In this document: positions 5,989 through 12,053 of the stretch, piece by piece
Position numbering within the stretch: position 1 is the first letter of the stretch
Layout of the letters: each line of letters opens with the position of its first letter
DNA from: Candidatus Micrarchaeum acidiphilum ARMAN-2
GTDB taxonomy: Archaea; Micrarchaeota; Micrarchaeia; Micrarchaeales; Micrarchaeaceae
Assembly: GCA_009387755.1 (NCBI GenBank)
Contig: GG697240.1
Span: 1 to 64,000, forward strand
Direction of reading: 5' to 3'
Length of the DNA: 64,000 nucleotides
Notes under the pieces: model-generated
Database searches by the model: none
What the model saw: only the letters and a program-made list of their open reading frames with translations
What the model was told of the DNA's origin: nothing
Made by a program: the position numbers and the translations under genes

Positions 5989-6939
5989 CTATCTTGTCCT
6001 CAACACTATCCTGGCGTTTGCAGAGTATATCTTCTCTGTCTGGGCATCGTCCAGGGAAAGCTGTTTTATGCTGCCCATTATCCTTTCTGTGCTGCCCCAC
6101 GGGTAGTCAGTCCCGAAAATCACATGGTCAATACCGAAAAAGTCCAATGCGATCCTTAGCCACGGCCACCACATCCCTTCTGCTGTATCGACATAAAGGC
6201 TTTTCAGGACGTCGAGCGGATTCTTCCTGTGGGTTTGTGCATATGTTGCGTCCTGCATCGCAAAATCTGAAATCCTTCCCGCAAGGAGCGGCACTATCGA
6301 GCCCAGGTGATGGACCACCACTTTCAGCCTGTCGTGCTTTTCGAGCACTCCGGACCTGAAAAGCCTGAATAGTGCAAGCGTCGTGTCCATGTCCCATCCA
6401 AGCGCTATGTCCGCATTGTAATCCTTAAGCCATGGATATGAATTTGCCATAAATGTCGGGTGTATCCAAAGTCCGGATCCTATGGATTCCAGGACCGAGT
6501 AAAATCCATCCAGCTCCGGTCCGTCTATGGGCTTGCCGTTGACATTAGACACTACCTGTATGCCGGAAAGCCCGAGGTCGTGAATGCACCTCTTCGCTTC
6601 ATCAGCTGCGAAACCAGGATCAGAAAGCGAGACCGTGCCTATCCCAAGGAACCTGTCTTTGTACTTTTCAACAAGGCTTCTTATGCCGTTGTTGGCCTCT
6701 ACGGTTATATGCTTTGTAGACTTTTCGTCTAGGCCCAGCCCATCGATCGCAGGCATGGCAAGAGAGAGCACTTCTTGATCTATGCCTAGCCTGTCCATTA
6801 CAGACAGCCTGTATTCCACATCGCGCAGTGCCCTGAGGGAATTCGCCATGTTTTTTACCATGTCTGGAATGCTTCCCATGGCATTGATATATTCATCCGG
6901 ATATATGTGGTTGAATATGTCAATTTTCATAATAAGCAT
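5989..6939 (-). CDS. Amidohydrolase-2 family metal-dependent hydrolase (ACMSD-like TIM barrel)
   Basis: N-terminus 'MKIDIFNHIYP' (iDxHxH-type motif) and 'WGSTERIMG'. TATA-like CTTATAAATTTAG about 15 nt upstream of the MLIMK start. Confidence 0.6.
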   Translation of the reverse strand: MLIMKIDIFNHIYPDEYINAMGSIPDMVKNMANSLRALRDVEYRLSVMDRLGIDQEVLSLAMPAIDGLGLDEKSTKHITVEANNGIRSLVEKYKDRFLGIGTVSLSDPGFAADEAKRCIHDLGLSGIQVVSNVNGKPIDGPELDGFYSVLESIGSGLWIHPTFMANSYPWLKDYNADIALGWDMDTTLALFRLFRSGVLEKHDRLKVVVHHLGSIVPLLAGRISDFAMQDATYAQTHRKNPLDVLKSLYVDTAEGMWWPWLRIALDFFGIDHVIFGTDYPWGSTERIMGSIKQLSLDDAQTEKIYSANARIVLRTR

Positions 6940-7042
6940 TGGCGAATCTAAATTTATAAGCATTATCGCTGTTTTGCCGCATATGCATTGTATGGATGCA
7001 GGCACAGCACTATACATAAATATCTATTGATAAAATTGATAT

Positions 7043-7448: not shown

Positions 7449-8270
7449 TTATGCACGATTCTTAATTATATGTTCAATCCCAAAAGCGGTAACCGACATA
7501 GTTGCGAGCTCAACCGCGTTTTTGAGCGCTGACTCTGGGCCTGCTCCCGCTGCGGTTTGGGCCATAAATGCCCCTCCGAGTATGTCTCCGGAACCGCTTT
7601 TTTCCACCTGCTTTACTCTTGGTGCCTGCGCATGGAATGCAGTGCCTTTGCCAGAGTACACTGCCCCGTACCTGCCGAGCTTGTAGACAAACGCCTTGCT
7701 TTCTAGCAGTGGCTTGTCAATAAGCCTAAATTCGTTCATGTCAAAGAAAAGCACGTCGGCAACTGCCATTGCGGCAGATATTTCTGCGTGCCTGCTCACC
7801 AGGTACTCTTTTACAGTGTCAATGCCTATCACAGCGCCTTTCACCGTGGACCTGATGTAGGACGCCACATCGCCTTGCTTTTTTGGGTCCGTAGTTGCTA
7901 TGTAGTAATATTTACACTTCAGATAATGCTCAGGAATCATCCGGATCGAAAATCTTTCGCGCACACCCGGAAAAATCTGGATGTCCCGCTTATAGCCGTC
8001 CTTGGCGTATTTGCACACGCACAAGAAGCTGCTTCCCGGTGAAGTTTGAACGCCTTCTGTGTCTGCGCCAAGGAGTGCAAGTTTGCCCATGTCATAATCG
8101 CTACCTACTATTGAGAGCAGTCCTACCCTGTCCGAGAACCTCGAGGCACCAGCTGCAGCATAATATGCAGATCCGCCCTGCATTTTCATGTTGATATCCG
8201 GTGCATGCAGTTCGTCATAGCCCAGGTCTCCGAATATCACAAGTTCTGGCGCTTTTTTAACTTCGTCCAT
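7449..8270 (-). CDS. PfkB/ribokinase-family sugar or metabolite kinase
   Basis: C-terminal 'KSGSGDILGGAF' matches PfkB signature 2. N-terminal GG dipeptide region. Last gene of an overlapping four-gene operon. Confidence 0.7.
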   Translation of the reverse strand: MDEVKKAPELVIFGDLGYDELHAPDINMKMQGGSAYYAAAGASRFSDRVGLLSIVGSDYDMGKLALLGADTEGVQTSPGSSFLCVCKYAKDGYKRDIQIFPGVRERFSIRMIPEHYLKCKYYYIATTDPKKQGDVASYIRSTVKGAVIGIDTVKEYLVSRHAEISAAMAVADVLFFDMNEFRLIDKPLLESKAFVYKLGRYGAVYSGKGTAFHAQAPRVKQVEKSGSGDILGGAFMAQTAAGAGPESALKNAVELATMSVTAFGIEHIIKNRA

Positions 8271-8296: not shown

Positions 8297-8830
8297 TCAT
8301 TCGTCAAACTTTAAGGTTTTAAAGCTTTTCAAATCCATGCCGTGCATGGCGTAGACCTTTTCCCAGCTTATATTCCCAAGCTCCCTTCCAGCTATTCCTA
8401 TCTCAGATATGGCCGACCGCACCTCTCTTTCGGACTTTGCCTCGACTTCAGCTACCGGCTTAAGCTTCGGCCATTCGTTTATGGTTATCTCTGCATTTTT
8501 GTAGATGTAAGTATATCTGACGTTTTCCTGATACAGCCCGTCGCCCAGTGCTTTCTGGAATATCTTTACGGCGGTGTCAAAGTCTTCAACAGCGGTTTCC
8601 AGCTCTTCGGTATTGGCGAGGCCGCTGCCGGTCCTGTACTTGTAGGTGACTGTGGCGGTTTTTCCGTCGGTCCTCACGCGTATGAATCTGTCCTCGTTTT
8701 CGGCCTTCTTTAAAGCGAAGACCCACCTTTTTTGCAGTGTCTTGCCAGCGAATTTAGCGCCGTTTTTTTCCAACTTTGCAATCAGGCCGTCCTTGTCTAT
8801 GTCGATTATCTTAGTTTCAATTTCGATCAT
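8297..8830 (-). CDS. CYTH-domain protein (triphosphate tunnel metalloenzyme; CyaB / thiamine-triphosphatase-like)
   Basis: N-terminal 'MIEIETKI' (ExExK motif) with alternating acidic and basic beta-strands. Overlaps the upstream gene by 4 nt. Confidence 0.65.
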   Translation of the reverse strand: MIEIETKIIDIDKDGLIAKLEKNGAKFAGKTLQKRWVFALKKAENEDRFIRVRTDGKTATVTYKYRTGSGLANTEELETAVEDFDTAVKIFQKALGDGLYQENVRYTYIYKNAEITINEWPKLKPVAEVEAKSEREVRSAISEIGIAGRELGNISWEKVYAMHGMDLKSFKTLKFDE

Positions 8831-9870
8831 TCAATCACTGCAGCAAGATTTTCGTATAGTATCTTTCCTCCGCTTAAAAGGCTTTTATATATTTGCTCGT
8901 GGCTTACTGCATCATTTTTTAGGTCTATGAGGTTGTCGGTCCTGGCCCCGCAGGGCTGCAGTATGCCTGTGGGTGAGAGCCTGGCATAATATCTGCAGCC
9001 CTCTAGGCATGCGCTTCGGGCTTTGCAGTTAACTACGGGGCAGTTGTTTGTCAGCGAATCCTTCAGGTCGATTATTGCGTTGCCTATTATGAAAATCTTG
9101 CCGTAGTAAGGCTGTATGTATGAATATGCAGAAGATGCCCGGGCGTCAAGCCTTTTTTCGAATTCCTTAAGCAACTGGTCAAAATGCTCCTGGTTCTGCC
9201 CGCTCTGGTCAATTATATGGAAAAATTTTATTCTGATGCCGAGGTTGTCTGAAAGCGCTATGTAATCGTCCAATTCCGCAAACGTTTCGTCTCTGATAAG
9301 CACATTTACACTTGTTTTGAGCCCGGAGCCTATTGCGCTTATTACGCCTTTCATTACAGCTTCTTGCGCGTCTATTCCAGTTATGCGCTTGAATTCGGTC
9401 CTGTCAAGTGAGTGCATCGACACATTTACCTCATTCAAGCCGGCATCCTTTAGGCGTGAGGCAAGGTTAGGATTCCCGCCAGAAAGCCGTGTTCCGTTCG
9501 TCGTAAGTTTGATATTTTTTATGTACCCTATTTTGCGCATTCTTGAAATAAGGTCTAAAAGTTCAGTTTCAAACAGCGTGGGCTCGCCATCGCCTGCAAT
9601 GTGAACGTTTATGTCCACCGAAGTAGCCGAATGCAGCTTTTCTACAATTGCAATTATTTCATTGTTCGATATTGCATTGCCGCTCCCTCTGTAGCTGTTG
9701 TCATCGTGGCATGCCACGCCAAGCTTCTTGTCGAAAATGCAGTTTTCATTGCATATACGTTTGCTTACGACTACTCCTTGCGGCACTGTTTTGTCTATTC
9801 TGAGATTCAATGATTTTGTCCTACCCAATTTTTTTTCTATTATTTCTATTGCCTTTTCCTCTGGGGTCAT
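8827..9870 (-). CDS. MoaA-like radical-SAM-fold protein with a non-canonical cluster motif
   Basis: MoaA-like core ('IAGDGEPTLF', 'KLTTNGTRL', 'AGLNEVNVSMHSLD') and a C-terminal Cys cluster (CPVVNCKARSACLEGC). The usual CxxxCxxC is 'CNENCIFD...AC' here. Start taken at MTPEEK. Confidence 0.6.
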   Translation of the reverse strand: MTPEEKAIEIIEKKLGRTKSLNLRIDKTVPQGVVVSKRICNENCIFDKKLGVACHDDNSYRGSGNAISNNEIIAIVEKLHSATSVDINVHIAGDGEPTLFETELLDLISRMRKIGYIKNIKLTTNGTRLSGGNPNLASRLKDAGLNEVNVSMHSLDRTEFKRITGIDAQEAVMKGVISAIGSGLKTSVNVLIRDETFAELDDYIALSDNLGIRIKFFHIIDQSGQNQEHFDQLLKEFEKRLDARASSAYSYIQPYYGKIFIIGNAIIDLKDSLTNNCPVVNCKARSACLEGCRYYARLSPTGILQPCGARTDNLIDLKNDAVSHEQIYKSLLSGGKILYENLAAVIE

Positions 9871-9880
9871 TGGAACACCA

Positions 9881-10537
9881 TTAGAGTCTTTCGCGCCTCT
9901 TGATGGCCCGTATTTTGCCAAGCGCAATCTTTGAGATTATGCAATCAACAGTCTCTTCAGGAGTGAGATTCGTGTTGTCTATCTCAATTACCTGTGCCTT
10001 GCCTCTTTCCCTTAGCTCCGCGGCGTACTTATAGAATTCCGAATCAATAAATGCCATTATCTTCGAGTCCCAGTCCAAACTGCTGTTTTTCACAGCTTCT
10101 CTTCGTGCAATCCTTCTAACCCGCTCTTCTTTGCCAACATGAAGGAACACCACAATGTCCGGATGCACTAGAGATCTTTCGGCAGAAGCAACAATGTCAT
10201 TTATTACAGATTTGTTGGCATCGCCATCGTACAGGGCATCGTAGGCAAAGTGATACGCCTTTGTGGAGTAAATGGATCTAACGAGTATTGTATCGATACC
10301 CTTCCTTTCGTTTTCAGCGGCCTCGTTGGAGGATAACTGATTAGTTCCTAGGAAGTATATCAGCCTGGCTAAAATTAGATCGCCAGCCTGGCCATTTAGA
10401 AAGTCCCGGAGGTCCGGCAGGAAGTCAACCCTCTTGGATTGCTCTATGACCTTAGATCCTGGCATTCTTTCAGAGAGCATTGCAGATATGGTAGATTTGC
10501 CGGAACCGTCACACCCTTCTATCGCTAAGATGACCAT
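9881..10537 (-). CDS. Thymidylate-kinase-like P-loop (d)NMP kinase
   Basis: 'ILAIEGCDGSGKST' is a Tmk-type P-loop. Start at MVILAI. First gene of the overlapping operon. AT-rich promoter region upstream. Confidence 0.6.
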   Translation of the reverse strand: MVILAIEGCDGSGKSTISAMLSERMPGSKVIEQSKRVDFLPDLRDFLNGQAGDLILARLIYFLGTNQLSSNEAAENERKGIDTILVRSIYSTKAYHFAYDALYDGDANKSVINDIVASAERSLVHPDIVVFLHVGKEERVRRIARREAVKNSSLDWDSKIMAFIDSEFYKYAAELRERGKAQVIEIDNTNLTPEETVDCIISKIALGKIRAIKRRERL

Positions 10538-10829
10538 GCGGATACACCTGCTAAGAGTTGCCACTCACTCCCATTTATAGTATAGCTGTTTTTCACGTTT
10601 GGTTATAATTTAAATATAATACTGCGCGGCGGTGCAATATCGATTGGGATGGAAACGCGAAAAATGCTGAAAAAAGTAAGTATGCAGGTATTTTGGCGTT
10701 AGACGATAGTATAGCTTAGCGACGTCAGAATTGATAGCTCGGCAACTAATTTATTTTTATATATATAAATCTTTTGCTATGTAGAAAGGTATAAATATAT
10801 GATAAAATAATATATTTACTGGTGTAAAT

Positions 10830-11312
10830 ATGACCAAACAAAAAACCAATTCGGATGGCATAACAAGAAGGATCTTCACGAAGGAAGTCGTAAAGTTGCG
10901 GGAGAGTTATAACGGCAAGGTAAGCGAGGAAGAGATGAAGAGCATAGGTGCAATACTGGAAACGGTAGATGCGACGTTTATTGGAACAAGCCGCTACAGC
11001 AAACCAGAAAATGGCTATGATCTCATAGCAAGCAGCATATACGCGGCGGCAGTTCAGGCAAAAATGAATGGCCATGACAACCTCTGGAAGGATTTGGCAT
11101 CCGTAGAGAATTCTGACTCGCTAATAAACAAGTTCAGCAGGTTTGTTAAATCAGATGCCGCCATTGTGGAGCAGAGAAAGAAGAAGTTTGATAAATTACA
11201 GTATCTCAGGGAAGTTGAAAACACACCGGGAGGGCTCGCAAGCATTCTTTCAAGCGAAAAAGGCAGGGCGGATCTGCTCAAGCAGCTCAGGAGGATAGAG
11301 AAGGAATCCTAA
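10830..11312 (+). CDS. Hypothetical protein
   Basis: 160-aa ORF immediately downstream of an AT-rich divergent promoter. No recognisable domain. Confidence 0.4.
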   Translation: MTKQKTNSDGITRRIFTKEVVKLRESYNGKVSEEEMKSIGAILETVDATFIGTSRYSKPENGYDLIASSIYAAAVQAKMNGHDNLWKDLASVENSDSLINKFSRFVKSDAAIVEQRKKKFDKLQYLREVENTPGGLASILSSEKGRADLLKQLRRIEKES

Positions 11313-11384: not shown

Positions 11385-12053
11385 TCAGATAGTGGCGCGT
11401 GGTCTTTTGCGCCTGCGGCCCATCTCTTTCAGGTAAAGCCTGAAGAGGTCCATTCTTCTGCTTGCGTTTCTGAGCAAAAAGTCAGTCATGCCCATTGAGT
11501 AAATGCTGCCCCTATATATGTTCTTCGTTACGAATCTCATTCCGAAGCCGGTGGCGCGCTTCACTGCCCCGGGTGTAACGGCGTTGGTAATCCTTTCGGT
11601 AAAAAATACACCGCTTCTTGCGAAGTCGTAAACCGCATCATAGAACGATTCGTCAAGCATGGCAACCGCGTCGGTATTTCTTATGTCGGGGTGCGTTACG
11701 GTTTCTACGAAATACATCATGTAGCGCCCCCTTTTCTCCAGCGAGTATACGTTGTTTGCGGTTATCTCCTGATCTAGCATAAGGCCCTTTTTGGCTTTCC
11801 TGAACATTTTTTCCTTTAGTGCAACAAAATGCCAGTAACCAAGTATGTTCAAATTTCCATCGACAAGATACCTCGAAGAGTAAGGGCTCTTCTTGAAAAC
11901 CGGTACCCAGTTCTCGCGCGTCCCTTCCTCCTCCTTGGTTATGCCCTTCATGTCTGCGTAATCCAGATAGATAAGCCTGTCAAGCAGGGATTCGTAGCTG
12001 TATTTTCCGCTTAGAAATGGGTGATATGGAATTACGGCAAGTGTTTCGAACAT
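11385..12053 (-). CDS. Hypothetical protein
   Basis: 222-aa ORF with host-like composition. No recognisable domain. Confidence 0.4.
   Translation of the reverse strand: MFETLAVIPYHPFLSGKYSYESLLDRLIYLDYADMKGITKEEEGTRENWVPVFKKSPYSSRYLVDGNLNILGYWHFVALKEKMFRKAKKGLMLDQEITANNVYSLEKRGRYMMYFVETVTHPDIRNTDAVAMLDESFYDAVYDFARSGVFFTERITNAVTPGAVKRATGFGMRFVTKNIYRGSIYSMGMTDFLLRNASRRMDLFRLYLKEMGRRRKRPRATI

What the first reader, a model, noticed from the sequence alone, without database searches (positions are those of the whole stretch)
8827..9927. MoaA-like radical-SAM protein with a degenerate cluster-binding motif
The protein keeps the MoaA-type core (GDGEPTL, TTNGTRL, VNVSMHSLD) and a C-terminal Cys cluster resembling MoaA's auxiliary site. 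The N-terminal cysteine triad that normally binds the radical-SAM 4Fe-4S cluster reads CNENCIFD...(11)...AC. The third Cys of CxxxCxxC is not in its canonical place. Either an unusual Cys spacing is used, or the protein has lost radical chemistry and repurposed the fold.
Basis: seen in the sequence. Interest (0 to 1): 0.55.

Follow-up and report, generated by a model that had tools for sequence, protein, structure and literature searches.

The report
Radical-SAM enzyme with stretched cysteine motif
This archaeal gene encodes a MoaA-shaped radical-SAM enzyme whose iron-sulfur-binding motif is stretched by a conserved 7-residue insertion; it most likely still works, is probably not MoaA, and sits in a cassette of nucleotide-handling genes resembling antiviral viperin systems.

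Summary
The minus-strand gene 8827-9870 (ORF to 9927) is 100% identical to a Ca. Micrarchaeum acidiphilum ARMAN-2 protein and reads CNENCIFDKKLGVAC. That is CX3CX9C, spacer 9 rather than 11. It is not a sequencing error or decay: at least 24 Micrarchaeota protein clusters keep C-x3-C-x-F-x7-C. They form one clade nested inside a larger uncharacterised family with canonical CNLxCxWC. The change is therefore one 7-residue insertion between the aromatic residue and Cys3. Two AlphaFold models (pLDDT 92) predict it as a strand-turn-strand.

The gene is packed with a thymidylate-kinase-like kinase, a CYTH triphosphatase/cyclase-like protein and a PfkB kinase. Across 39 related loci the partners are nucleotide kinases, CYTH, TIR proteins and, in 15 loci, RNA-polymerase secondary-channel factors (TFS-like or GreA-like).

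Best reading: an active nucleotide-modifying enzyme in a viperin-like cassette. Product and biological role are inferred, not shown.

The parts
8827..9870 (-). Radical-SAM gene (347 aa from the ATG at 9870; the open frame continues to a TTG at 9927)
   Evidence: ORF list. 100% identical to P0001 from Ca. Micrarchaeum acidiphilum ARMAN-2. Pfam Radical_SAM 58 bits against a cut-off of 29.5. AlphaFold model pLDDT 92.
9709..9753 (-). Radical-SAM cluster motif Cys40-x3-Cys44-x9-Cys54 (CNENCIFDKKLGVAC)
   Evidence: Direct translation. The three Cys are invariant in the family and align with MoaA C24/C28/C31.
9712..9732 (-). Seven-residue insertion (Asp47-Ala53) between the aromatic Phe46 and Cys54, predicted as a strand-turn-strand
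   Evidence: It appears as a gap in all canonical relatives and MoaA. DSSP on two models gives E45-47 / turn 48-51 / E52-53 and E47-49 / turn / E54-55. A Gly/Asn/Asp-rich turn position is conserved.
9580..9594 (-). GDGEP, the SAM-binding 'GGE' motif with one inserted residue (G-x-GEP), a signature of the wider family
   Evidence: Translation. G93/G95/E96/P97 are conserved, whereas MoaA has GGEP.
8950..9042 (-). C-terminal five-cysteine auxiliary-cluster region CX4CX5CX3CX14C, including Arg293 and Arg297 (equivalents of MoaA Arg266/Arg268)
   Evidence: Translation. All five Cys are invariant across both the stretched-motif and canonical subfamilies.
9881..10564 (-). Thymidylate-kinase/deoxynucleoside-kinase-like P-loop kinase, 10 bases upstream of the radical-SAM gene
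   Evidence: Pfam Thymidylate_kin 48 bits and dNK 28 bits. NCBIfam dTMP kinase 38.6 bits, below its cut-off of 83. Homologues sit next to the radical-SAM gene in 10 of 39 loci.
8297..8830 (-). CYTH-type triphosphate tunnel metalloenzyme (CyaB-like). Its ATG overlaps the radical-SAM stop codon (ATGA).
   Evidence: N-terminal ExExK motif in the sequence. Profile hit to the Saci_0718 triphosphate tunnel metalloenzyme, E 7e-8. NCBIfam cyaB 44.9 bits, cut-off 58. Conserved directly after the radical-SAM gene in 6 Micrarchaeota loci, plus CYTH in 2 bacterial-type loci. The overlap is read.
7449..8270 (-). PfkB-family (ribokinase-like) kinase, 26 bases after the CYTH gene. Seen only in this genome's version of the cassette.
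   Evidence: Pfam PfkB 44.6 bits. Weak ribokinase and ribose-1-phosphate-kinase matches. No homologue in the other loci.

Best explanation
The gene encodes an active, two-cluster, MoaA-fold radical-SAM enzyme. The SAM-cleaving [4Fe-4S] cluster is held by Cys40, Cys44 and Cys54. A lineage-specific 7-residue insertion sits between the conserved aromatic residue (Phe46) and Cys3. It is predicted to fold out as a small beta-hairpin, which would return Cys54 to the base of the loop next to Cys44. A five-Cys C-terminal domain holds an auxiliary cluster next to two conserved arginines that bind the guanine base in MoaA. The enzyme is not the GTP 3',8-cyclase of molybdenum-cofactor synthesis. It belongs to an uncharacterised sister family (G-x-GEP motif, five C-terminal Cys) that performs radical chemistry on a nucleotide, probably a purine nucleotide. 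In this genome it is co-transcribed with a thymidylate-kinase-like kinase and a PfkB kinase, which would supply phosphorylated substrate, and with a CYTH enzyme, which would act on the triphosphate of substrate or product. By analogy with viperin plus CMPK2, the cassette most likely makes a modified nucleotide. The recurrent TFS-like and GreA-like neighbours point to RNA polymerase as its target.

Shown here: the motif, its conservation and its origin by insertion; the fold; the failed MoaA tests; the gene neighbourhoods. Inferred: cluster ligation by Cys54, the substrate, the product, and the antiviral or conflict role.
For: Motif and origin: direct translation. At least 24 protein clusters carry C-x3-C-x-F-x7-C. 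About 55 relatives carry canonical CX3CX2C with the same G-x-GEP and five-Cys features. In a neighbour-joining tree the 16 stretched-motif sequences are monophyletic and nested among canonical ones. Cys54 is followed by H/N-D-D, as Cys3 is followed by His in relatives and archaeal MoaA.

No other Cys is specific to the clade. The only conserved Cys are the 3 N-terminal and 5 C-terminal ones, and the latter are also present in canonical relatives.

Structure: pLDDT 92.0 and 92.5 for two members that are 45-46% identical to each other. Both show strand-turn-strand across the insertion.

Active-enzyme signs: equivalents of MoaA G74/G75/E76, T102, N104, S126 and N165 are invariant, and the N124 equivalent is nearly so.

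Not MoaA: see the membership tests (PMC9026282).

Cassette: the four genes are packed with gaps of 10 and 26 bases and a 4-base overlap. Kinase, CYTH and TFS-like neighbours are conserved despite gene-order changes. A pyruvate-kinase/thymidylate-kinase fusion occurs in Bacteroidota relatives. TIR, CARF, HerA-like and integrase neighbours also occur. GreA/GreB C-domain proteins lie directly downstream in 6 loci, weaker Gre-like proteins in 4, and TFS-like proteins in 5. For viperins, linkage to nucleotide kinases and fusions to triphosphatase/cyclase domains are documented (bioRxiv 10.1101/2023.09.13.557418).
Against: No coordinates were available, so the distances between the three Cys were not measured. 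pLDDT drops to about 71 in residues 51-60. AlphaFold does not model clusters.

Several MoaA triphosphate-binding residues are changed (R71 to His90, K163 to Ser187, R192 to Lys215). The substrate may therefore not be a triphosphate.

The radical-SAM protein hits no PADLOC defence model, and no relative was found on viral contigs.

In the window itself the neighbours beyond the cassette are ordinary metabolic genes: amidohydrolase, histidine ammonia-lyase-like lyase and M20 peptidase. This genome's cassette has no TFS-like gene within the 64 kb.

The whole ARMAN-2 genome could not be searched for MoaC and other cofactor-pathway genes.
Confidence: 0.6

Rival explanations
1. It is a true MoaA (GTP 3',8-cyclase) for molybdenum-cofactor synthesis that merely carries an odd loop. 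This is how automatic annotation names it.
For: JGI annotation calls it 'cyclic pyranopterin phosphate synthase' or 'MoaA'. MoaA is the best solved-structure match. The equivalents of Arg266/Arg268 and of the three auxiliary Cys are present.
Against: NCBIfam MoaA equivalog scores are 109, 107 and 86 bits against cut-offs of 325, 231 and 284. Pfam Mob_synth_C (PF06463) is present in all the full-length MoaA hits but in none of the family. The Arg17 equivalent is Val/Ile/Leu/Thr and similar, and Arg17 is essential for cyclisation (PMC9026282). There are two extra invariant Cys. Conserved neighbours are kinases, CYTH, TFS/Gre-like and TIR proteins, never MoaC, MoaB or MoaE.
Confidence: 0.08
2. 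It is a pseudo-enzyme. The cluster site is crippled by the insertion, radical chemistry is lost, and the fold is reused for binding or regulation.
For: The canonical CX3CX2C is broken. There is a weak match to the 'pseudo-SAM/SPASM' family TIGR04347 (50.7 bits).
Against: All three Cys are invariant across at least 24 clusters down to 45% identity, and the SAM-binding motifs are conserved. The TIGR04347 score is a tenth of its 525-bit cut-off. The insertion is length-invariant with a conserved turn, as expected for a structured element and not for decay. Other radical-SAM families work with stretched motifs, CX4-11CX2C (PMC9477430).
Confidence: 0.07
3. It is an active radical-SAM enzyme, but the cassette is housekeeping nucleoside or nucleotide salvage, or RNA/cofactor modification, in a host-dependent DPANN archaeon. 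It is not a conflict system aimed at RNA polymerase.
For: In the window the neighbours are metabolic genes. The partners are ordinary-looking salvage enzymes: PfkB, thymidylate-kinase-like, uridine-kinase-like, Nudix and HD. There is no PADLOC hit for the radical-SAM protein and none on viral contigs.
Against: Only 8 loci were found among 185,579 species genomes. This is a lower bound, because the scan used a single peptide pattern. Gene order and partners vary. Canonical relatives sit beside TIR, CARF, HerA-like ATPase, helicases and integrases. Some Micrarchaeota loci lie next to an integrase and a PIF1 helicase, or next to a methyltransferase/ResIII pair. The kinase matches PADLOC models PDC-M51B (E 6e-17) and VakA (E 3e-11). 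A dedicated TFS or Gre paralogue is hard to explain by salvage.
Confidence: 0.25
4. The radical-SAM cluster is bound by Cys40, Cys44 and some residue other than Cys54 (for example one of the five C-terminal Cys, or His55), and Cys54 has another role.
For: The Cys geometry was not measured. Model confidence is lower around residues 51-60. The family has two 'extra' C-terminal Cys.
Against: The five C-terminal Cys are equally conserved in relatives that have a normal CX3CX2C, so none is spare for this clade. Cys54 aligns with Cys3 and keeps its downstream context. Position 55 is His or Asn, so it is not a conserved ligand.
Confidence: 0.07

Closest known systems
MoaA / MOCS1A, GTP 3',8-cyclase (S. 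aureus MoaA, PDB 1TV7/2FB3)
   Different: CX3CX9C instead of CX3CX2C. G-x-GEP instead of GGEP. Five C-terminal Cys (CX4CX5CX3CX14C) instead of three (CX2CX13C). Arg17 is absent; Arg71 becomes His, Lys163 becomes Ser/Thr and Asp128 becomes His. No Mob_synth_C domain. Far below the equivalog cut-offs. No cofactor-pathway neighbours.
Viperin / prokaryotic viperins (pVips) with CMPK2-type nucleotide kinases
   Different: Not a viperin by sequence (NCBIfam viperin model 23 bits against 180; no PADLOC viperin hit). It has an auxiliary cluster domain, which the two viperin-specific models tested here do not detect. I did not find a link to TFS or Gre factors described for viperins. The product is unknown.
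Radical-SAM families with stretched cluster motifs (CX4-11CX2C megaclusters on RadicalSAM.org; QueE CX14CX2C; HmdB/HcgA CX5CX2C)
   Same: Precedent that the three cluster cysteines tolerate insertions and still support SAM cleavage (PMC9477430; motif list also in PMC4389238).
   Different: All variants listed there lengthen the first spacer and keep CX2C. Here the first spacer is canonical and the second grows from 2 to 9. Neither paper lists such a case, and a full-text search for 'CX3CX9C' with 'radical SAM' returned nothing.
AbmM and BlsE (nucleoside/nucleotide-modifying twitch-type radical-SAM enzymes of antibiotic pathways)
   Different: Different families with canonical motifs and different gene clusters. 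No evidence here for antibiotic biosynthesis genes in the Micrarchaeota cassette.

Membership tests
Radical SAM superfamily (PF04055) | Pfam Radical_SAM score above the gathering cut-off | tested here: met
   58 bits against 29.5, residues 57-223 of the 366-aa ORF.
Radical SAM superfamily (PF04055) | CX3CX2C cluster motif near the N-terminus of the barrel | tested here: not met
   The motif is CX3CX9C. Three Cys are present and invariant, but with a 7-residue insertion before Cys3.
Radical SAM superfamily (PF04055) | SAM-binding motifs (GGE and downstream polar residues) | tested here: met
   G93-D-G95-E96-P97, T123, N125, S151 and N189 are invariant, N149 is nearly so, and all align with the MoaA SAM/ribose contacts.
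Radical SAM superfamily (PF04055) | Reductive cleavage of SAM by a [4Fe-4S]+ cluster | not testable with these tools
   Needs anaerobic reconstitution, EPR and a 5'-deoxyadenosine assay.
MoaA (GTP 3',8-cyclase) | Score above the curated equivalog cut-offs (TIGR02668, NF001199, TIGR02666) | tested here: not met
   109.2 against 325; 107.4 against 231; 86 against 284.
MoaA (GTP 3',8-cyclase) | C-terminal Mob_synth_C domain (PF06463) | tested here: not met
   Family members carry only PF04055, while every full-length MoaA hit (P0019-P0064) carries PF06463 (precomputed Pfam column). My own Pfam scan found only Radical_SAM.
MoaA (GTP 3',8-cyclase) | Three strictly conserved, essential arginines (S. 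aureus R17, R266, R268; PMC9026282) | tested here: not met
   The R266/R268 equivalents (R293, R297) are conserved. The R17 column is V/I/L/A/T/M/E/K in the clade and variable in canonical relatives, but Arg in every true MoaA aligned.
MoaA (GTP 3',8-cyclase) | Auxiliary [4Fe-4S] cluster on exactly three Cys (CX2CX13C) with an open iron for GTP | tested here: inconclusive
   C288, C292 and C307 correspond to the MoaA trio with one register shift. Two further invariant Cys (C277, C282) could close the fourth site.
MoaA (GTP 3',8-cyclase) | Works with MoaC in a molybdenum-cofactor pathway | not testable with these tools
   No MoaC, MoaB or MoaE gene lies next to any of 39 loci. Whole genomes could not be scanned.
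Viperin / pVip | Match to viperin-specific models | tested here: not met
   NCBIfam viperin_w_prok 23.1 bits against 180. No PADLOC hit at E <= 0.1.
Viperin / pVip | Dehydration of an NTP to a 3'-deoxy-3',4'-didehydro chain terminator | not testable with these tools
   Requires enzymology and LC-MS.
TIGR04347 pseudo-SAM/SPASM proteins | Score above the curated cut-off | tested here: not met
   50.7 bits against 525.
Uncharacterised 'G-x-GEP / five-Cys' MoaA-like family (defined here) | G-x-GEP motif, C-terminal CX4CX5CX3C...C, and conserved R-x3-R after the fourth Cys | tested here: met
   Present in the window protein and in about 80 relatives. Profile scores for full-length members are about 130-550 bits, while archaeal and bacterial MoaA-type proteins (GGEP) score about 100-120 bits.

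The most novel reading that the evidence does not exclude
The G-x-GEP/five-Cys radical-SAM family would be a second, viperin-independent way of making an antiviral or regulatory nucleotide analogue aimed at RNA polymerase. Kinases would load the substrate, the radical-SAM enzyme would alter it, and CYTH would process the triphosphate. A dedicated secondary-channel factor (a TFS paralogue in archaea, a GreA-like protein with a novel SPGSGMGRPxDLPxH tip in bacteria) would either rescue the host polymerase from the analogue or deliver it. The Micrarchaeota branch would additionally show that the CX2C half of the radical-SAM motif can be split by a hairpin without loss of function.
Probability: 0.25. 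Interest if true: 0.85.

Novelty: new variant of a known kind. Interest (0 to 1): 0.62.

Why it matters
For radical-SAM enzymology, the published catalogue of motif variants that I could read lengthens only the first spacer and keeps CX2C. A conserved, clade-wide CX3CX9C with a predicted hairpin between the adenine-stacking aromatic residue and Cys3 would extend the rules for recognising active family members. Motif filters that require CX3CX2C would miss it or call it degenerate.

For annotation, these proteins are auto-labelled MoaA or cPMP synthase. That would wrongly credit DPANN archaea with molybdenum-cofactor synthesis.

For biology, a MoaA-fold enzyme recurs next to nucleotide kinases, CYTH, TIR proteins and RNA-polymerase secondary-channel factors, and the last of these are analogous proteins in archaea and in bacteria. 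This gives a concrete, testable lead to a new nucleotide-based conflict or regulatory system.

Tried and rejected
- Sequencing error or frameshift in the motif: rejected. The identical protein cluster has 7 member sequences on 7 contigs, and the motif is shared by independent metagenomes.
- Alternative alignment without an insertion: HMMER aligned S. aureus MoaA Cys31 to Asp47 without a gap. Rejected because archaeal MoaA and the canonical relatives are 7 residues shorter exactly there and share the Cys-His context.
- Measuring Cys-Cys distances: not possible. Model coordinates are not exposed, so only DSSP strings could be used.
- PADLOC on the radical-SAM, CYTH, PfkB and HD proteins: no hits.
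- Viral contigs: 36 pattern matches, none a relative.
- Homology between the 405-aa wHTH protein of Micrarchaeota and the bacterial 'X' domain or the CARF protein: none found. PDB profile search found only the HTH.
- The 488-aa and 373-aa neighbours (L023, L021) against the X domain: no similarity.
- Literature: nothing for 'CX3CX9C', nothing for radical SAM + CYTH + MoaA, nothing relevant for Gre factors + radical SAM or Micrarchaeota + molybdopterin. Searches for the PADLOC names VakA and PDC-M51 returned only unrelated papers, so their meaning is unverified. The ARMAN genome paper is not held.
- Metagenome scan with a mixed alignment failed for lack of a conserved stretch. It was repeated with canonical members only.
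- Bacterial-type promoter and terminator scan: not informative for an archaeon.
Full report
**1. What is in the sequence**

The interval 8827-9927 is one open frame on the minus strand (366 aa from a TTG). A database protein that is 100% identical (P0001, 347 aa, 'Radical SAM domain protein', Candidatus Micrarchaeum acidiphilum ARMAN-2) starts at the ATG at 9870. That start avoids the 47-base overlap with the upstream kinase gene, so I take 8827-9870 as the gene.

Direct translation gives KRICNENCIFDKKLGVACHDD, which is Cys40-x3-Cys44-x9-Cys54. The C-terminal cluster reads CPVVNCKARSACLEGCRYYARLSPTGILQPC. That is five cysteines spaced CX4CX5CX3CX14C.

**2. The motif is a conserved variant that arose by one insertion**

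A search of 5.8 billion proteins returned 18 close clusters (36-84% identity), most of them named from Micrarchaeota. After those there is a drop from 175 to 67 bits, where true MoaA proteins begin. All 16 full-length close members read C-N-E-[NS]-C-x-F-x7-C. Eight further clusters found later read CNENCIFDADTDGKC. Loci from eight species-level MAGs, seven labelled Micrarchaeota and one Marsarchaeota, carry the gene.

A profile search of 1.84 billion representatives then showed a wider family, with about 40 representatives at E below 1e-30. These members have a canonical CNLxCxWC and otherwise share the same peculiarities. They have G-x-GEP instead of GGEP, and the same five C-terminal Cys.

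In alignments the Micrarchaeota sequences differ from these relatives, and from archaeal MoaA, by exactly seven extra residues. The extra residues lie between the aromatic residue that follows Cys2 and Cys3. The Cys-His/Asn-Asp context after Cys3 is retained. In a neighbour-joining tree rooted on MoaA, the 16 stretched-motif sequences form one clade. That clade is nested among canonical ones, and its nearest neighbours are P0068, P0070 and P0077. The tree is a distance tree without support values, so I use it only for the nesting.

The simplest history is one insertion in an ancestor of this Micrarchaeota clade. The insertion has since been kept at constant length, with a Gly/Asn/Asp-rich turn position.

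**3. Does it still bind the cluster and SAM?**

The only cysteines conserved in the family are the three N-terminal and the five C-terminal ones. The five C-terminal Cys are equally conserved in relatives that have a normal CX3CX2C. None of them is therefore 'spare' to replace Cys3, and Cys54 is the homologue of Cys3.

The residues that contact SAM in MoaA are invariant or nearly so: the GGE motif, T102, N104, N124, S126 and N165 in S. aureus numbering.

Two AlphaFold models were made. One is of the window protein (pLDDT 92.0, pTM 0.91). The other is of P0011, which is 45-46% identical to it (pLDDT 92.5). Both give the same secondary structure across the insertion: a short strand right after Cys2, a four-residue turn, a short strand, then a helix starting at Cys3. 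If the two strands pair with each other as a hairpin, its base places Cys54 beside Cys44. That is roughly where the i+3 cysteine sits in the canonical loop.

This last step is inference. Confidence falls to about 71 in residues 51-60, and AlphaFold does not model clusters.

There is published precedent that stretched motifs work: CX4-11CX2C in several megaclusters (PMC9477430). All variants listed there change the first spacer. I found no description of a changed second spacer.

**4. It has the MoaA fold but is not MoaA**

Against membership:
- The three NCBIfam MoaA equivalogs score 109, 107 and 86 bits against cut-offs of 325, 231 and 284.
- The Mob_synth_C domain that marks every full-length MoaA hit is not detected in any family member.
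- MoaA has three strictly conserved, essential arginines (PMC9026282, read). The two that hold guanine O6 (R266, R268) are kept as R293 and R297.
- R17 is needed for the 3',8-cyclisation transition state and as the proton donor. Its position is Val here and variable across the family, while every true MoaA in the alignment has Arg.
- Further active-site positions differ in a clade-specific way: R71 is His90, D128 is His153, K163 is Ser/Thr187 and R192 is Lys215.
- Two additional invariant Cys (C277, C282) precede the MoaA-like trio.

I read this as follows. A purine, possibly guanine, nucleotide is probably still bound next to the auxiliary cluster, but the chemistry and the phosphate recognition differ from MoaA.

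**5. Neighbourhood in the window**

Four genes are packed on the minus strand.
- Thymidylate-kinase/deoxynucleoside-kinase-like P-loop kinase, 10564-9881 (Pfam 48 bits).
- The radical-SAM gene, 9870-8827, starting 10 bases after the kinase stop.
- CYTH protein, 8830-8297. Its ATG overlaps the radical-SAM TGA, giving ATGA.
- PfkB-family kinase, 8270-7449, starting 26 bases after the CYTH stop.

The CYTH assignment rests on four points. The protein has the N-terminal ExExK signature. A family profile hits the Sulfolobus triphosphate tunnel metalloenzyme Saci_0718 (E 7e-8). It scores 44.9 bits on NCBIfam cyaB, below the 58-bit cut-off. Pfam CYTH hits its homologues in L003 (weakly) and in L015.

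**6. Neighbourhood in relatives**

In other Micrarchaeota loci the core recurs despite rearrangement.
- L007 and L014 have kinase, radical-SAM and CYTH in the same order as the window.
- L001, L003 and L005 have radical-SAM, CYTH, then kinase.
- L003 also has an HD hydrolase.
- A second arrangement, in L011-L013, has radical-SAM followed by a uridine-kinase-like kinase. L012 and L013 also have a Nudix gene upstream, as does L025, which has no kinase.
- A 405-aa protein with a C-terminal winged helix is transcribed divergently in five loci.

I then clustered all ORFs within 4 kb of the gene in 39 non-redundant loci, including 43 loci fetched from metagenomes. The recurrent partners are:
- thymidylate-kinase-like kinase in 10 loci, two of them fused to a pyruvate-kinase barrel;
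- CYTH in 8 loci;
- a roughly 340-aa 'X' domain fused either to an N-terminal HTH or to a C-terminal TIR domain, in 6 loci (35% identity between the two forms, E 3e-62; TIR_2 79 bits);
- a HerA/DUF87-like ATPase in 3 loci;
- a CARF-type Cas_NE0113 protein;
- phage integrases flanking L041.

These partner sets vary from locus to locus. That variability, together with TIR, CARF and mobile-element genes, is what one sees for defence or conflict cassettes rather than for core metabolism. This is a contextual argument, not a demonstration.

**7. An unexpected recurrent partner: RNA-polymerase secondary-channel factors**

In five Micrarchaeota loci the cassette ends with a 110-115-aa protein built of two zinc ribbons. 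It scores 21-26 bits on Pfam Zn_ribbon_TFIIS, at or above the cut-off of 21. Its profile hits RPA12, RPB9, RPC10, the TFIIS C-ribbon and the Sulfolobus RpoM-2 chain of PDB 7OQY (best E 9e-10). It has an invariant R-x-x-D-E that aligns with the acidic hairpin of transcript cleavage factors.

In bacterial-type loci the gene directly after the radical-SAM gene is a GreA/GreB C-domain protein in six loci (60-80 bits against a cut-off of 26.9). In four more loci it is a weaker Gre-like 153-aa protein (22 bits). So 15 of 39 loci pair this enzyme family with a factor of the type that binds in the NTP-entry channel of RNA polymerase. The factors come from two unrelated protein families in the two domains of life.

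The window itself has no such gene within its 64 kb.

**8. Proposed mechanism, with status of each step**

- Shown: the gene encodes a MoaA-fold radical-SAM protein with an invariant CX3CX9C and intact SAM motifs. It is co-located with nucleos(t)ide kinases and CYTH.
- Inferred with good support: Cys54 is the third ligand, and the insertion forms a hairpin.
- Inferred with moderate support: the substrate is a phosphorylated purine nucleotide produced by the adjacent kinases (PfkB or uridine-kinase-like, then thymidylate-kinase-like, with pyruvate kinase in some bacteria). CYTH then hydrolyses or cyclises the triphosphate of substrate or product.
- Speculative: the product is a nucleotide analogue that acts on RNA polymerase, as viperin's ddhCTP does. 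The TFS/Gre-like partner would then remove it from, or target it to, the polymerase. Linkage of viperin to CMPK2-type kinases, and viperin fusions to triphosphatase/cyclase domains, are documented.

**9. Against this reading**

- The enzyme matches no known defence model and was not found on viral contigs.
- Several MoaA triphosphate-binding residues are changed.
- The ARMAN-2 copy lies among metabolic genes.
- I could not scan whole genomes for the cofactor pathway.
- Housekeeping salvage or modification therefore remains a serious rival (0.25).

**10. Novelty and verdict**

The protein is a new variant of a known kind. It is a radical-SAM enzyme of the MoaA/twitch type, belonging to an uncharacterised family that automatic pipelines mislabel as MoaA. 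Its cluster motif has a lengthened second spacer, which I did not find described. The finding is real, and more interesting than 'degenerate motif' suggests, mainly because of the cassette it belongs to.

Noticed in passing
L001 8196-8540; L003 8776-9120; L005 3658-4005; L007 4240-4575; L014 7573-7905: A 110-115-aa TFS/RPA12/RPB9-type double zinc-ribbon protein with an invariant R-x-x-D-E acidic hairpin closes the Micrarchaeota radical-SAM cassettes. It looks like a dedicated transcript-cleavage-factor paralogue. None is present in the 64-kb window.
   Followed up: yes
L020 7997-8524; L035 5232-5768; L036 4629-5255; L037 4608-5171; L039 4738-5277; L040 1121-1657: GreA/GreB C-domain proteins lie directly after the canonical-motif relatives. 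Their N-terminal part does not match the Gre N-domain model. Between two helical stretches it carries an invariant SPGSGMGRPxDLPxH segment, possibly a new kind of secondary-channel tip.
   Followed up: partly
L015 388-1758 (-); L020 5419-6936; L041 6954-8501; L042 1908-3437; L044 1655-3184; L053 202-1716: An unannotated domain of about 340 aa, with a weak squalene-cyclase-repeat match, is fused either to an N-terminal HTH_3 or to a C-terminal TIR domain, always next to the radical-SAM gene. The two forms are 35% identical.
   Followed up: partly
L017 8558-10237; L047 5715-7403: A pyruvate-kinase barrel is fused to a thymidylate-kinase-like domain (559-562 aa). It lies in Bacteroidota-type cassettes that also hold a CARF (Cas_NE0113) protein, a MazG-like protein, several unknown genes and a B12-binding radical-SAM enzyme. 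The whole looks like a larger nucleotide-tailoring cluster.
   Followed up: partly
protein P0044 (340 aa, Logan contig of 2456 bases): This protein looks like a circularly permuted relative. The barrel and the C-terminal Cys region come first, and a beta1-plus-cluster motif, CNFNCGLPGTNKSWC, comes at the very C-terminus. That motif is also CX3CX9C, but the insertion lies before the aromatic residue. It could be real or an assembly or gene-fusion artefact.
   Followed up: no
L014 6001-7014: The radical-SAM gene in the MAG labelled Marsarchaeota matches in three pieces in different frames (6001-6267, 6311-6706, 6718-7014). This is either a pseudogene or assembly frameshifts.
   Followed up: no
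window 8827-8830: The radical-SAM stop codon and the CYTH start codon overlap as ATGA on the minus strand, which suggests translational coupling. A hairpin followed by a T-containing tail lies just after the PfkB stop at 7438-7423.
   Followed up: partly
L001 4678-5895 (-); L007 583-2115 (-); L012 3116-4327 (-); L013 4698-5912 (-); L025 5685-6902 (-): A divergently transcribed protein of about 405 aa (the L007 ORF, 510 aa, was called from an upstream start) has a C-terminal winged helix (IclR/ArsR-like) and an N-terminal region of about 330 aa of unknown fold, with one weak RbsD/FucU hit at E 3e-4. It is probably the cassette's regulator or sensor. It is absent from the window.
   Followed up: partly
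window 10830-11312 (+) and 11385-12053 (-): Two ORFs just upstream of the cassette (160 and 222 aa) have no Pfam match. The 12331-14070 gene is an aromatic-amino-acid (histidine) ammonia-lyase (529 bits), followed by an M20 peptidase.
   Followed up: no
L025 11553-13193 and L027 5736-9194: In one Micrarchaeota lineage the radical-SAM gene lies about 3.5 kb from an N6/N4 DNA methyltransferase plus ResIII helicase pair (restriction-modification-like) and near an IS605 OrfB/TnpB gene.
   Followed up: no
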